From an uncultured Acidobacteriota bacterium (GTDB taxonomy: Bacteria > Acidobacteriota > Terriglobia > UBA7540), in assembly GCA_963804995.1 (NCBI GenBank), contig CAWDSK010000006.1, forward strand, positions 992,001-1,056,000: a DNA stretch of 64,000 nt, written 5' to 3'. Position numbers: made by a program. Below are positions 33,701 through 36,700 of this stretch, piece by piece. The stretch's first letter is position 1. Each line of letters starts with the position of its first letter.

Positions 33701-36700
33701 GTATGCGACCCCCATGCTGAATCAATCCCGGCCGAGCGCGCAAGGTCGGTTTGTGGTGGGGGCGCTTGGGGAAGACCCCTCGCGGAAATGTGGATGAATC
33801 TTGACTTAGGTGTTTCCGGAACCGCCCTTGTAACAACCCACCGTTCCCACGCTTGACACTGCACGATGCCCCGCCCTACCATGACCGCCAACATAAATCA
33901 TAAGGAGGCGCGATGAATACCCAATTTGATTTGACGGGCCAGGTAGCCTTGGTTACGGGCGCGGCCCGTGGACTGGGACACGCAATTTCGCTCGAACTGG
34001 CGCAAGCGGGAGCGGACGTAGCCCTGGGGCTGCGCGACGTGTCGACCGGCTCAGGGCTCGCCAGCGAAATCACTGCCTTGGGCCGCCAGGCTTTACCGCT
34101 GCAAATGGATGTGACACACCTCGATCAAATCTCGAGCGCCATCGCTGCCGTGGTCGCGCGCTTCGGCCGGCTCGATATTCTGGTCAACAACGCCGGCGGG
34201 GGATGGAGCAATCTTGCTGAGGATGTGAGCGAAAAAGAATTTGACGAAACCATCGACCTGAATGCCAAGTCCACGTTTTTTGCCTGCCAGGCCGCCCAGC
34301 GCGTCATGCGGCGCCAGATGAGCGGATCGATCATCAATATGAGCTCGCAGGCGGGGTTCGCAGCCTTGCCCACGGAATCGGTCTACTGCCTGAACAAGGC
34401 AGCGATCGCCCACCTCACCAAATGCCTCGCGGTCGAATGGGGCAAATACAACATCCGCGTAAACGCCGTTGCGCCCACCTTCATCGCCACGCCCGGAACC
34501 GAAGAGGCGCTCTCCGACCCCGCTTTCCGCGCCGACACGGTGGAGCGCATAGCCGCCTTGCATCGCATCGGCGAGCCGCGAGAAGTGGCGGGCGCCGTGG
34601 TGTTCCTGGCCTCGCCCGCGGCGTCGCTCATCACCGGCCACACTTTGCTGATTGACGGCGGTTGGACGGCACGCTGAGCCACGCACAAAACGCTGGGGGT
34701 TTGTTGCAGGGGCGGTTCGCGGCGCGGCAAGATTTTGTGCCACGGGCATCTTGCCCGTGCTCGGGCATGGCCAGGATGGCCATGGCACAGCTTTGGTTGC
34801 GGCTCTGCCGCGCCGACAAGGGCTCTGCCCTTCCGGGCCCATCCTCACTTTTTCCCCCTCTGGGCCTCCCGGAAGGCATTGCCTTCCGGGAGGCCCTGGG
34901 GTTTCTACATTTTGTATGCGAACTCCGCCCGCGCCAACCCCCCGATTCCCGCAGGGCGACAGAAGAGCGGTTTGGCGACTAGATTCAGCCCCAAAGGGGC
35001 GAAATAACGAAGCCCAGGCCAACGGCCTGGGTTAAGATCATCCCCCAATTTTACCGCGAGCCCTGAAGGGGCGAGATAGGTGTTCCCCCATGCCGCAATC
35101 GCTTTCGCAACTCTACGTTCACTTGATCTTCAGCACCAAACATCGCGAGCCGATGTTATTGTCGCCCGTGCGCGAAGACCTCCACGCCTACCTGGCGGCG
35201 GTTCTCAACAACCAGGACTCCCCGGCGCTGAAAGTCGGAGGCATGAGCGACCACGTTCATGCGCTGTTTCGATTGTCGAAGAACCTCGCGCTGGCAAAAA
35301 TCGTGGAGGAAGTGAAGACCAGTTCCTCGAAATGGGTCAAGACGCAAGGGCGCGGCTTAGCGAACTTCTATTGGCAGAGCGGCTACGGCGCGTTTTCGGT
35401 GGGCTCGGCGGATGTGGAAGAAGTCGTGGAATACATCGCGCAACAAGAAAGCCACCACCGCGTGGCCAGCTTTCAAGAGGAATTCCGGAAGCTCTTACAC
35501 GCGCACGGAATTGCCTACGACGAGCGGTACGTGTGGGATTGAAGAAGACTGTTCCGCCCCTGATTTAGCCCCAAAGGGGCGAAATAACGAAGCCCAGGCC
35601 AACGGCCGGGTCAATGGGCGGGCCGCCCCATTTTTGTGCCTGAGCCCCAAAGGGGCGAAATAACGAAGCCCAGGCCAACGGCCTGGGTCAATGGGCGGGC
35701 CGCCCCATTTTTGTGCCTGAGCCCCAAAGGGGCGAAATAACGAAGCCCAGGCCAACGGCCTGGGTTTAGATTACCCCCCAATTTTGCCCCCAGCCCTGAA
35801 GGGGCGAGATAGGTGTTCCCCCATTCCGCAATCGCCTTCGCAACTCTACGTACATCACAGAACAAGAAAGCCACCACCGCGTGGCCAGCTTTCAAGAGGA
35901 ATTCCGGAAACTACTGGACGCGCACGCAATCGCCTACGACGACCGGTACGTGTGGGATTGAAAAGGATTGTTCCGCCCCTTCAGGGCTCGGGTATCGGTT
36001 TGGGTCCCGCTGACCCAGGCCGTTGGCCTGGGCTTCGTTATTTCGCCCCTTTGGGGCTCAAGGACGGTTGCCGAAATCGGAAATATGGTGCCCGGGTTTC
36101 TTGACACCGACACCTTTCTGACACCCGAGGAGGGGGGCGACGCCACGTGAAACTCAGAATGCTGAGGGATGGCGACAAGAAATCGGAAATATCGTGCCTG
36201 TCCGAGTTTCTCCTGGTACGCCGAGGAAACAGGCGCACGGTGATGAAGAAATATCGGTCCGAAAGAAAAGGACGACGGAGCTTCGACACGGCGCTACAAT
36301 ACAACGGTTTGTAACATTATGGCGAGAAAAGACGCGGTCCGCAAAGGCGGCGGTCCGCGCTACGAACTAATCCTCCAAATGCCAAGCGAAGGCAGGAGAC
36401 AACAGTGGACAAATCGCTGACGAAGATGATTCGATTACTTTCGCCAAAATTCCCCGAATGGGACGAGACGCTGCAGCGGTTTGACCGGCAGAGCAAGGAC
36501 CTTACCGAGAGAGAAAATTACGACGCAGAGGTACGCACGATTCAGGAGGTTTGGAAGATTCTGGAAACAGTATTAAAAGTCTGCACGAAGGTAGGCGGCT
36601 ACAAAGACGATTGGGACTTCCCCGAAAAGCTCCACCTGATGATATGCGGCATTGACACGTGGGTGAAGTCCAAGAAGATGGGCGTACAGTTTGAAATCGG

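What a model noticed while it worked through the whole genome (the two positions that open the first line are those of the whole stretch)
34987..36058. Acido-Lenti-1 'RNA' motif is the REP-like repeat of a Y1 (HUH) transposase REPtron
The orphan Rfam family Acido-Lenti-1 (RF01687, function unknown) is in this genome the two-hairpin repeat that flanks a 150-aa IS200-like Y1 (HUH) tyrosine transposase, in the inverted-flank layout of a REPtron, and is scattered as singlets, inverted pairs and tandem arrays in intergenic DNA. It is best read as a REP-like mobile DNA repeat, not as a free-standing sRNA gene.
Evidence so far: All 4 genes of one Y1_Tnp clade (g05239 C6:1027090-1027542, g01548 C3:146937-147386, g06151 C6:2002034-2002486, g01132 C2:514782-515141; 37-73% identical to each other, calls 9,14) have an RF01687 hit 25-95 nt downstream on the gene's own strand; g05239 and g01548 also have an inverted copy 50-60 nt upstream. 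The genome holds 14 hits over Rfam's cut-off and 53 at E<=1, among them a six-fold tandem array with 121-nt period (C5:204676-205326) and inverted pairs. In 4 other Acidobacteriota genomes 8 of 11 loci with a homologue of g05239 have RF01687 hits within about 120 nt of the gene in the same layout. In a phylum-wide sample of 150 other genomes the motif (E<=1e-4; 35 genomes, call 15) and [...]
(Added by a program. Inside this text positions count along the whole contig: contig position 992,001 is position 1 of the stretch shown here. "Call 12" and the like, gene names such as g00115 and contig names such as C1 are that model's own, and its searches are not shown. The text may have been shortened before it was handed on; [...] marks where a part breaks off. 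The agent that wrote the report below was given it as the finding of a first reader that could run no searches.)

Follow-up and report, generated by a model that had tools for sequence, protein, structure and literature searches.

The report
Transposon hairpin ends catalogued as RNA
The hairpin motif listed in RNA databases as the unexplained "Acido-Lenti-1 small RNA" is here the end piece of a small jumping-gene family built around a single-strand-DNA transposase, so it is best read as mobile repeat DNA and not as an RNA gene.

Summary
Window 34987-36058 carries five RF01687 matches around a 150-aa Y1/HUH transposase gene. The copy 25 nt downstream of the intact gene lies on the opposite strand, not the gene's own. 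The inverted partner sits 472 nt downstream, behind a deleted gene copy.

RF01687 is the outer 45 nt of a roughly 90-nt three-hairpin module. This module sits as inverted copies at both ends of the element.

- **Whole unit is mobile.** Six loci from other species carry the element at 93-95% identity. Homology stops at the outer hairpin feet (34980-34987 and 36060-36064) and the flanks are unrelated. Five gene-deleted mini copies in this genome end at the same feet, and four share one deletion junction.
- **Association holds across phyla.** Of 80 homologue loci from six or more phyla, 38 (Rfam) to 60 (own profile) show the upstream-inverted / downstream-same-strand layout.
- **Protein family.** It is IS608-like, not a RAYT, and carries the signature of TnpAY1 subclass 1.2.

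This works like a REPtron/REPIN system but is closer to an IS with miniature derivatives. No cleavage was tested, and transcription is not excluded. This scan reached the same reading before on other genomes.

The parts
34987..35031 (-). Left-end RF01687 copy (outer hairpin hp2 and hairpin hp1). Its outer foot is the left boundary of the mobile unit.
   Evidence: 40.2 bits. Homology to six loci of other species starts at 34980-34987.
35032..35089 (+). Leader with the inner small hairpin hp3 (35057-35078), which resembles hp2.
   Evidence: Inverted repeats I6 and I9. DNA fold. Duplicated at 35765-35822 (D2, 93%).
35090..35542 (+). Intact tnpA, 150 aa, Y1/HUH transposase with H55-V-H57, Y115, Q119 and H122-H123.
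   Evidence: Pfam Y1_Tnp 92.8 bits. NF033573 66.1 bits. Profile match to IS608 TnpA 4e-14. Model pLDDT 91.2. Foldseek top matches ISDra2/IS608 TnpA, about 1e-9.
35543..35566 (+). Remnant of the right inner hairpin, cut off in the middle and followed by a left-oriented repeat.
   Evidence: D3 homology to 35851-35980 ends at 35561. Sequence read. The same junction is present in L008.
35567..35765 (-). Tandem array of three RF01687 copies (35567-35610, 35643-35687, 35720-35764), period 77 nt. The spacers hold a GC hairpin plus T run.
   Evidence: D1; 2.6 copies, 99%; terminator-like sites at 35616-35628 and 35693-35705 on the + strand.
35765..35961 (+). Second leader with hp3 (35788-35811) and an internally deleted, start-less tnpA remnant (35823-35961).
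   Evidence: D2 135 nt 93% and D3 130 nt 89%. Alignment with four other mini copies.
35974..35992 (+). Right inner hairpin hp3', the inverted partner of hp3.
   Evidence: I7 and I9, 95-100% complementary. DNA fold.
36014..36058 (+). Right-end RF01687 copy. Its outer foot is the right boundary of the mobile unit.
   Evidence: 40.2 bits. Homology to other species' loci ends at 36060-36064. 98% complementary to 34984-35032 (I3).
15655..15978 (+). Separate gene-deleted mini copy of the same element, with both end modules.
   Evidence: RF01687 at 15655-15698(-) and 15935-15978(+). Same deletion junction as the copy at 35720-36058.
39710..39793 (+). Solo right-type three-hairpin module.
   Evidence: RF01687 at 39750-39793(+), 30.4 bits. 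hp3'-like hairpin upstream of it in the sequence.

Best explanation
**What it is.** Window 34987-36058 is one copy of a small transposable element. Its ends are inverted copies of a three-hairpin DNA module, ordered from the inside as hp3, about 22 nt, hp1, a 12-nt linker, then hp2 outermost. Rfam's Acido-Lenti-1 model (RF01687) describes hp1, the linker and hp2 of that module.

**What it encodes.** The element encodes a 150-aa Y1/HUH tyrosine transposase of the IS200/IS608 fold. The protein carries the Y-x3-Q-x2-HH signature of TnpAY1 subclass 1.2. This copy is a composite: left module, intact gene, three extra left-oriented repeats where the gene's own right module was cut off, then a gene-deleted copy that supplies the right module.

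**Shown**
- The motif flanks this gene family in a fixed orientation in many phyla.
- Each gene has its own repeat variant.
- The unit occurs at unrelated loci in related species, with homology ending at the hp2 feet.
- Gene-less derivatives, inverted doublets, solo modules and tandem arrays are dispersed in intergenic DNA.

**Inferred**
- As in IS608/ISDra2 and in RAYT/REP systems, the enzyme (probably a dimer) recognises the hairpins when the DNA is single-stranded, for example at the replication fork.
- It cuts at or next to the hairpin foot through Tyr115, with the HUH histidines holding the metal.
- It joins the ends, so moving the full element and, in trans, the gene-less copies.

Any RNA made from these repeats would be a by-product or a secondary use.
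For: **Locus anatomy:**

**Protein**
- Pfam Y1_Tnp scores 92.8 bits. NF033573 IS200/IS605 scores 66.1 against a cut-off of 55.
- The HUH and Y-x3-Q motifs align to IS608 TnpA.
- The model has pLDDT 91.2. The best PDB matches are ISDra2/IS608/IS200 TnpA at E 1e-9 to 2e-7, with the E. coli RAYT 4er8 at 4e-6.
- The homodimer model scores 0.74 against a best of 3 controls of 0.00. That mark was reached by 20 of 30 proteins solved as pairs of one chain and 1 of 23 solved as single chains. Runs agree in at least 98% of contacts and partner pLDDT is at least 89. IS608 dimers are solved, so the pass may be from likeness.

**Genome**
- All 5 of 5 subclass-1.2-type genes have the three-hairpin inverted flanks, each with its own stem variant.
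- There are 53 repeat copies at E<=0.01, and 45 of 53 lie outside ORFs of 150 aa or more, against 16.8% of random 45-mers.
- Neighbouring pairs within 1 kb: 12 (-,+), 0 (+,-), 7 (+,+) and 3 (-,-).

**Mobility**
- Five mini copies at unrelated loci end at the hp2 feet, and 4 of 5 share one deletion junction.
- Six loci of other species carry the element at 93-95% identity. Homology to the window stops at 34980-34987 and 36060-36064, and nothing matches the 300 nt on either side.
- One of them (L115) is the plain form: left module, gene, right module.
- The neighbouring SDR gene is only 78-83% identical in the same genus and lies elsewhere.
- As single-stranded DNA the mini copy folds into one long hairpin, z -11.5.

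**Other phyla, 80 homologue loci** (582 of 601 candidates confirmed, best 80 kept)
- RF01687 at E<=0.1 is found in 47 of 80.
- It is in the canonical place and strand, within 150 nt, in 38 of 80, and on both sides in 16.
- Near hits are upstream(-) 38 against upstream(+) 4, and downstream(+) 22 against downstream(-) 5.
- With a profile built from these hits, which is partly circular, the canonical count is 60 of 80 and both sides 32.

**Phylum sample of 150 genomes**
- Both motif and gene 27, motif only 8, gene only 4, neither 111.

**Base pairs over 139 distinct copies**
- Watson-Crick 1659, G:T 25, A:C 75. There is no G-U enrichment on the strand Rfam annotates.

**Original seed alignment**
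- 53 of the 54 rows I read come from one genome's contigs, many in regularly spaced runs.
Against: - No biochemical test exists. Binding and cleavage by the enzyme, and the cleavage sites, are inferred.
- No empty site was recovered. The flanks were themselves repeats or not conserved.
- No target motif or duplication was seen outside the ends.
- 8 of 35 motif-positive genomes in the sample lack a detectable gene. One, G109, has 23 matches. Another of the eight, G071, is flagged unpublished by the tool.
- 4 of 31 gene-positive genomes lack the motif at E<=1e-4.
- 20 of 80 homologue loci lack the canonical layout even with the sensitive profile. Downstream opposite-strand copies, as in this window, are not rare: 5 by Rfam and 16 by the profile.
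- The genomes are related, so the 2x2 table is descriptive only.
- Contigs from RNA libraries contain related copies, so transcription is not excluded.
Confidence: 0.82

Rival explanations
1. Domesticated REPtron in the strict sense. The gene is a fixed, single-copy host gene, as RAYTs are, and only the flanking repeats and doublets are mobilised. The gene-bearing unit does not transpose.
For: - Each of the 5 paralogues is present as one intact copy, while repeats number 53.
- Inverted doublets dominate, 12 against 0.
- Subclass 1.2 is described as low-copy and without IS properties (PMC6006769 section 18).
Against: - The gene-bearing unit lies at unrelated loci in six other species' records at 93-95% identity. 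The neighbouring SDR gene is 78-83% identical and sits elsewhere.
- Mini copies retain both ends of the ORF and share a deletion junction, so they derive from a full unit that was copied.
- The protein fails the RAYT model, 30.6 bits against a cut-off of 80.
Confidence: 0.2
2. Rfam's reading: Acido-Lenti-1 is a small non-coding RNA or an RNA-level cis element, for example a 3'-end stabiliser or terminator. Its link to the transposase gene would then be regulatory.
For: - Hairpin covariation is real.
- Weinberg et al. rated it 'RNA? y' (PMC2864571 Table 1).
- hp1 plus its T-rich linker matches a loose terminator pattern in this genome.
- The downstream copy is on the gene's sense strand in most loci.
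- Related sequences are present in contigs of RNA libraries.
Against: - No sigma-70-like promoter was found in 34700-36300: 0 found against 0.6 expected.
- Copies occur on both strands as inverted pairs and in tandem arrays.
- Pairs are almost purely Watson-Crick, and A:C (75) outnumbers G:T (25) on the annotated strand, the opposite of what an RNA on that strand predicts.
- The conserved unit extends to a third hairpin, and the motif's end is the boundary of a mobile unit.
- The linker is not T-rich in other phyla.
- RNA-library contigs cannot show transcription, strand or ends.
Confidence: 0.07
3. Relic repeats now used by the host. The modules were spread by a transposase in the past but today serve as structural or insulating elements (terminators, nucleoid-protein sites), and the enzyme is inactive or does something else.
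For: - Repeats persist in 8 sampled genomes without the gene.
- They are strongly intergenic.
- Array spacers carry terminator-like hairpins.
Against: - The catalytic residues H55, H57, Y115 and Q119 are invariant or nearly so in 66 homologues.
- Element copies are 93-95% identical across species at unrelated loci.
- Identical 45-nt cores occur at many sites in this genome.
- These points all indicate recent activity.
Confidence: 0.1

Closest known systems
Rfam RF01687, Acido-Lenti-1 RNA motif (Weinberg et al. 2010, PMC2864571)
   Same: Four copies in the locus score 40.2 bits against a cut-off of 37 over the full 46-position model. The two hairpins and the conserved linker are the same.
   Different: Rfam files it as an sRNA gene of unknown function. 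Here it is the outer part of a longer three-hairpin DNA module that ends a transposable unit. Wobble statistics do not favour the annotated strand.
REPtron / RAYT-REPIN systems (TnpA_REP with REP/BIME; PMC8266576 abstract; PMC3116915 and PMC3337134 search listings)
   Same: A Y1/HUH gene is flanked by inverted hairpin repeats. The same repeats are dispersed in intergenic DNA as singlets, inverted doublets and clusters. Each gene has a cognate repeat variant, and gene copies are few while repeats are many.
   Different: - The protein fails the RAYT model NF047646, 30.6 bits against 80, and is closer to IS608/ISDra2 TnpA.
- It lacks the class-2 'YIHxNP'-type Y motif listed in PMC6006769 Table 1.
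- A dimer is predicted. The E. coli RAYT being a monomer is recalled, not checked here.
- The module has three hairpins and no GTAG tag.
- The copy number is modest, about 55.
- The gene-bearing unit itself is found at unrelated loci.
IS200/IS605 family (IS608, ISDra2) and their gene-less derivatives (PATEs)
   Same: Same fold and catalytic motifs. NF033573 is over its cut-off. There are hairpin ends, no target duplication, and deletion derivatives that keep the ends.
   Different: That IS200/IS605 ends lie as hairpins in the same orientation on one strand, without terminal inverted repeats, is recalled knowledge. Here the two ends are inverted copies of one another, 98% complementary over 49 nt. 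Each end has three hairpins, and intact genes are single-copy per paralogue.
TnpAY1 subclass 1.2 (Quentin, Siguier, Chandler, Fichant 2018, PMC6006769)
   Same: Y-x3-Q-x2-HH signature (Y115, Q119, H122, H123), a short core, a conserved C-terminal extension, low copy number and close relation to IS200 transposases.
   Different: [quoted passage not shown] Here the genes have conserved hairpin ends, show mobility, and occur in Acidobacteriota, Verrucomicrobiota, Planctomycetota, Bacteroidota and others.
TIRtrons / TIRYT (Di Nocera et al. 2013, PMC3733652 section 16)
   Same: Y1 genes flanked by terminal inverted repeats that also form small dispersed families, including a group in Acidobacteria.
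   Different: According to PMC6006769, all 26 TIRYT examples fall in class 2: 20 in subclass 2.1 (longer proteins with a C-terminal HTH), 4 in 2.2 and 2 in 2.5. Their TIR motif is GGGGWSAS. This genome has such longer genes too, but they are a different clade from the 150-aa gene here. I could not see Figure 9, so overlap of its 'double palindromic TIRs' with RF01687 is not excluded.

Membership tests
Rfam RF01687 (Acido-Lenti-1) | Covariance-model score at or above the gathering score of 37 bits | tested here: met
   Four copies at 40.2 bits and one at 30.0 bits (below) in 34987-36058. 14 copies over the cut-off genome-wide.
Rfam RF01687 (Acido-Lenti-1) | Being an RNA gene (type 'Gene; sRNA') | tested here: inconclusive
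   No promoter-like site. No G-U excess on the annotated strand. RNA-library contigs hold related sequence but cannot show transcription.
Y1_Tnp / HUH single-strand-DNA transposases (Pfam PF01797) | Profile score over the cut-off, with the HUH motif and the catalytic Tyr with Gln four residues on | tested here: met
   92.8 bits against 23. H55-V-H57, Y115 and Q119 align to IS608 TnpA and are invariant or nearly so in 66 homologues. The fold matches ISDra2/IS608 TnpA.
IS200/IS605 family insertion sequence | Transposase matches the NCBIfam equivalog NF033573 | tested here: met
   66.1 bits against a cut-off of 55.
IS200/IS605 family insertion sequence | Ends are hairpins in the same orientation on one strand, without terminal inverted repeats (recalled definition) | tested here: not met
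   The ends are inverted copies, 98% complementary over 49 nt (I3). The same holds in 16 to 32 of 80 homologue loci with copies on both sides.
IS200/IS605 family insertion sequence | Several near-identical gene-bearing copies per genome | tested here: not met
   5 paralogues, 39-75% identical to one another, each with a single intact copy.
REPtron (RAYT gene plus REPs) | Transposase is a REP-associated tyrosine transposase (NF047646) | tested here: not met
   30.6 bits against a cut-off of 80. 4er8 ranks 30th, behind all IS200/IS605 structures.
REPtron (RAYT gene plus REPs) | Gene flanked by inverted copies of a hairpin repeat that is also dispersed in intergenic DNA | tested here: met
   The local copy is a composite, with the inverted partner behind a deleted gene copy.
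REPIN-like / MITE-like non-autonomous elements | Gene-less inverted doublets of the repeat that fold into one long hairpin and occur at several loci | tested here: met
   12 (-,+) pairs against 0 (+,-) within 1 kb. Five mini copies. Fold z -11.5.
TnpAY1 subclass 1.2 (PMC6006769) | Y motif signature Y-x3-Q-x2-HH | tested here: met
   Y115, Q119, H122 and H123. Q119 and H123 are invariant and H122 is at least 90% conserved in 66 sequences.
TnpAY1 subclass 1.2 (PMC6006769) | Conserved subclass-specific C-terminal domain | tested here: inconclusive
   A conserved C-terminal extension exists (F128, E131, L136, D144-E145, Y147, W149; helices 128-138 and 145-148). I could not compare it with the paper's Figure 7c or its profile.
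TnpAY1 subclass 1.2 (PMC6006769) | Placement in the subclass by the authors' profiles or tree | not testable with these tools
   The authors' HMMs are not in the libraries held here.

The most novel reading that the evidence does not exclude
The three-hairpin-ended elements built around TnpAY1 subclass 1.2 may be a distinct class of Y1 transposable element, widespread in six or more phyla, that sits between IS200/IS605 and REPtron/REPIN systems. The enzyme would be an IS608-like dimer, but the ends are true inverted repeats. Cutting would then have to occur symmetrically at the hp2 foot on opposite strands, or on the fold-back hairpin of the whole single-stranded unit. Neither IS608 nor E. coli TnpA_REP is known to use such a mechanism. 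[quoted passage not shown]
Probability: 0.3. Interest if true: 0.75.

Novelty: new variant of a known kind. Interest (0 to 1): 0.58.

Why it matters
- **It gives an orphan Rfam family a concrete, testable identity.** The family was described in 2010. It was still called 'of unknown function' in a 2026 preprint, and another 2026 preprint read it as a possible regulator of protease genes. Genome annotators and comparative studies should treat these hits as mobile repeat DNA, not as sRNA genes.
- **It supplies cognate DNA ends and signs of mobility for TnpAY1 subclass 1.2.** The 2018 survey described that subclass as lacking IS properties.
- **It offers a natural intermediate for how REP/REPIN systems may arise from IS200-like elements.**
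- **The biochemical test is simple.** It needs a 150-aa protein and 45-100-nt oligonucleotides.

Tried and rejected
**Empty-site searches**
- Three attempts in same-genus genomes gave no clean empty site.
- The flanks of the mini copy at 15655-15978 are themselves multi-copy repeats.
- The flanks of C6:1672477-1672803 and of the main locus are not conserved beyond the neighbouring gene.

**Target motif**
- The 14 nt outside hp2 over 149 hits carry at most 0.15 bits per position.
- No duplication was seen at the five mini copies.

**Expression**
- The run search found only small shares: at most 0.19 for DNA runs and at most 0.08 for RNA runs.
- Laying four RNA-library runs gave short contigs of related copies, 90-99% alike and including other deletion forms. 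Contigs cannot show transcription, strand or ends, and DNA may be present in such libraries. This is no evidence either way.
- One such contig joins a right-end spacer to a left-oriented repeat. I considered a circle junction and rejected it, because the join is not hp2 foot to hp2 foot.

**Promoter scan**
- None found in 34700-36300. The scan covers sigma-70-type sites only.

**Up/down flank similarity test**
- 26 of 78 loci exceeded the 99th percentile of cross-locus pairs. That control is inflated by the motif shared between loci, so the figure is conservative.

**Literature**
- Weinberg's text description of the motif (Additional file 1.DOC) could not be read. It may say more than Table 1 does.
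- That the motif was noted near group II introns is recalled only. One homologue locus (L019) does have a group II intron match about 820 nt downstream.

**Lentisphaerae**
- I could not fetch that genome to check gene adjacency. Only the seed coordinates were seen.
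Full report
**1. The observation**

The window holds eight RF01687 matches at E<=1. Five lie in 34987-36058:
- 34987-35031(-), 35643-35687(-), 35720-35764(-) and 36014-36058(+), each 40.2 bits against a gathering score of 37;
- 35567-35610(-) at 30 bits.

Between the first and second lies a 150-aa ORF at 35090-35542(+). It scores 92.8 bits on Pfam Y1_Tnp, cut-off 23.

- 53 matches at E<=1, 14 over the cut-off, with only 150 of 1943 first-look candidates scored;
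- a 121-nt array of 6.0 copies at C5:204608-205333.

One detail is wrong. The copy 25 nt downstream of the intact gene is on the opposite strand, in the same orientation as the upstream copy. The inverted, own-strand partner at 36014 lies 472 nt downstream.

Between them are three things:
- two more left-oriented copies, forming a 77-nt array of 2.6 units;
- a second copy of the leader, 135 nt at 93% identity;
- a tnpA remnant that has lost its start codon and about 300 internal bases, 130 nt at 89% identity.

**2. Anatomy of the repeat**

The sequence conserved next to each copy extends inward beyond the Rfam model. A small hairpin hp3 resembles hp2. It is followed by a spacer of about 22 nt, then the 8-bp hairpin hp1, a 12-nt linker and the 5-bp hairpin hp2. 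RF01687 covers hp1 through hp2.

The module lies upstream of the gene with hp2 pointing away from it, and downstream as its inverted copy. All 5 of 5 genes of this type in the genome have that layout. Each has its own stem sequences with compensatory differences. The fifth gene, C3:545027-545473, has a variant so diverged that RF01687 does not report it.

A sequence profile of the copies finds 53 at E<=0.01:
- 45 of 53 lie wholly outside any ORF of 150 aa or more, 6 partly and 2 inside. Of 5000 random 45-mers, 16.8% lie outside.
- Neighbouring copies within 1 kb are 12 times (-,+), never (+,-), 7 times (+,+) and 3 times (-,-).

Pairs always have hp2 outward, and the same-strand pairs are the tandem arrays.

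**3. The unit is mobile**

Five gene-deleted mini copies of about 240-340 bp lie at loci with unrelated flanks. Two of them are in the window, at 15655-15978 and 35720-36058. Their homology starts and stops at the hp2 feet. Four of five share the same internal deletion junction, and the fifth has a larger deletion that removes it. The deleted form was therefore copied as a unit.

As single-stranded DNA the mini copy folds into one long hairpin, -109.5 kcal/mol, z -11.5.

Six loci from other species carry the gene-bearing element at 93-95% nucleotide identity. These are L008 from the named collection and L111-L115 from same-genus genomes.
- Their homology to the window begins at 34980-34987 and ends at 36060-36064.
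- Nothing matches the 300 nt on either side.
- L115 shows the plain form: left module, gene, right module.
- The others are composites like the window, with different numbers of internal repeats.
- In the same genus the neighbouring SDR gene is only 78-83% identical. It lies on other contigs, or 120 kb away in G021.

I found no empty site. I found no target duplication and no conserved target motif, with at most 0.15 bits per position over 149 flanks.

**4. Beyond this genome**

A scan of species-representative genomes with an alignment of four paralogues gave 601 candidates, of which 582 were confirmed. The best 80 loci were kept, at 49-95% identity. By their record titles they come from Acidobacteriota, Verrucomicrobiota, Planctomycetota, Bacteroidota, Calditrichota, Ignavibacteria, Sumerlaeota, Abditibacteriota and others.

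Rfam was run on all 80, with 1.2-kb flanks:
- RF01687 at E<=0.1 was found in 47 of 80, and almost no other family matched.
- 38 of 80 have a copy within 150 nt in the canonical place and strand, and 16 have one on both sides.
- Near hits are upstream(-) 38 against upstream(+) 4, and downstream(+) 22 against downstream(-) 5.
- Typical distances are 40-90 nt.

A profile built from the best 150 matches of my own covariance model is partly circular for the loci that supplied them. It raises this to 60 of 80 canonical and 32 on both sides. Twenty loci remain without the layout.

Independently of any motif model, the upstream flank and the reverse complement of the downstream flank of the same locus resemble each other. 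This exceeds the 99th percentile of cross-locus pairs in 26 of 78 loci, 8 of them among the 32 such loci without an Rfam hit.

In 150 other Acidobacteriota genomes:
- the motif at E<=1e-4 is in 35;
- the gene at E<=1e-20 with the paralogue profile is in 31;
- both are in 27, motif only in 8, gene only in 4, neither in 111.

One of the eight motif-only genomes, G071, is flagged unpublished by the tool, and that cell of the table rests partly on it. The genomes are related, so the table is descriptive.

**5. The protein**

- NCBIfam places it with IS200/IS605 transposases, 66.1 bits against a cut-off of 55. It does not place it with REP-associated transposases, 30.6 against 80.
- A 66-sequence profile matches IS608 TnpA at 4e-14, with HUH and Y-x3-Q aligned.
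- The model has pLDDT 91.2. It matches ISDra2, IS608 and Sulfolobus IS200 transposases at E 1e-9 to 2e-7, with the E. coli RAYT structure 4er8 behind them at 4e-6.
- The Y motif reads Y115-x3-Q119-x2-H122-H123. There is a conserved C-terminal extension. This is the signature Quentin et al. give for TnpAY1 subclass 1.2 (PMC6006769, section 18 read in full).
- A homodimer model supports pairing but does not show it. The score is 0.74 against a best of three controls of 0.00. That mark was reached by 20 of 30 proteins solved as pairs of one chain and 1 of 23 solved as single chains. Runs agree in at least 98% of contacts and partner pLDDT is at least 89. IS608 TnpA dimers are solved, so the pass may reflect likeness.

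**6. RNA or DNA?**

Over 139 distinct copies aligned to the model, the 13 pairs are 1659 Watson-Crick, 25 G:T and 75 A:C, with 48 other or gapped. An RNA on the annotated strand should show G-U, not A-C. Part of the A:C excess sits at loop-closing positions, so I read this only as no support for the annotated strand.

The original seed alignment shows the same behaviour. In supplement S5 part 91, 53 of the 54 rows I read come from contigs of one genome, many in regularly spaced same-strand runs. By my eye count about half of those rows carry an A-C mismatch in hp1.

- No sigma-70-type promoter is found in the locus.
- hp1 plus its linker fits a loose terminator pattern in this genome, but the linker is not T-rich in other phyla.
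- RNA-library contigs contain related copies. This cannot show transcription.

**7. Mechanism**

Shown:
- a fixed geometric link between gene and repeat;
- cognate repeat variants for each gene;
- unit boundaries at the hp2 feet;
- dispersal of full, deleted, doublet, solo and arrayed forms;
- an intact IS608-like catalytic core.

Inferred: the enzyme recognises the hairpins in single-stranded DNA and cleaves and rejoins at the hairpin foot. It thereby moves the full unit and, in trans, the gene-less forms.

Because the ends are inverted, the chemistry cannot simply copy IS608. Two possibilities remain open. One is symmetric cutting on opposite strands. The other is action on the fold-back form.

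**8. Comparison and novelty**

The system works like a REPtron/REPIN system and like an IS200/IS605 element with miniature derivatives, but it fails defining features of both:
- it fails the RAYT model;
- its ends are inverted rather than same-strand;
- its intact genes are single-copy per paralogue.

It fits the sequence signature of subclass 1.2. The literature I could read describes that subclass as lacking terminal structures and IS properties. TIRtrons in Acidobacteria (PMC3733652 section 16) concern class-2 proteins according to PMC6006769. I could not see their Figure 9.

The full-text search for 'Acido-Lenti-1' found six papers. I read passages from three of them, and none links the motif to a transposase. 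Two from 2026 still call its function unknown. A search for the subclass and REPtron terms from 2018 on found nothing further.

Earlier agents of this scan reached the same reading on at least eight other genomes and once in this genome. What this window adds is the intact element with exact ends, its deletion lineage, and cross-species copies at unrelated loci.

**Verdict:** a new variant of a known kind, with moderate interest.

Noticed in passing
window 5525-5600: A long GC-rich palindrome that Rfam matches only to plant and animal miRNA models below their cut-offs. An 86-nt query around it gives 134 BLAST hits in the genome. It looks like a second, more abundant REP-like family, possibly the partner of the longer RAYT/TIRYT-type genes seen.
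   Followed up: partly
window 14900-15550 and 16143-16700: Both flanks of the mini copy at 15655-15978 are themselves multi-copy repeats. The left piece has six further copies at 99-100% identity in this genome and 83-86% copies in same-genus genomes. They are probably other insertion sequences.
   Followed up: no
window 34730-34800: A short dispersed repeat with internal palindromes gives 17 BLAST hits in the genome. A unit of about 52 nt (34737-34788) appears in contigs of all four RNA-library runs with unrelated sequence on both sides.
   Followed up: partly
G000 C6:152713, C6:1674455, C6:1257330, C5:4983, C2:727081: A unit of about 32 nt is inserted, once or as up to three tandem copies, into the loop side of hairpin hp1 of several repeat copies.
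   Followed up: no
window 35611-35642 and 35688-35719: The spacers of the 77-nt array carry a 5-bp GC hairpin followed by a T run on the + strand. This is a terminator-like site just downstream of the intact transposase gene.
   Followed up: no
L019:2477-2672: A group II intron domain match (RF02005, 58.4 bits) lies about 820 nt downstream of a Planctomycetota homologue of the transposase. I recall, without a source read here, that Acido-Lenti-1 was noted near group II introns.
   Followed up: no
G000 C2:514782-515141 (L003): This paralogue (g01132) matches only residues 35-149 of the family profile. The N-terminal coding sequence, an hp1 copy and hp3 are still visible upstream, so the gene is probably disrupted by a frameshift.
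   Followed up: partly
window 36073-36092 and 36179-36198: Two 20-nt direct repeats lie 106 nt apart just outside the right end of the element (D4). Part of this stretch recurs next to another copy at C5:204287-204337.
   Followed up: no
genome G109 of the phylum sample: It has 23 RF01687 matches at E<=1e-4 but no subclass-1.2-type gene at E<=1e-20 in a 99%-complete genome. The repeats either persist without the gene or are served by another enzyme.
   Followed up: no
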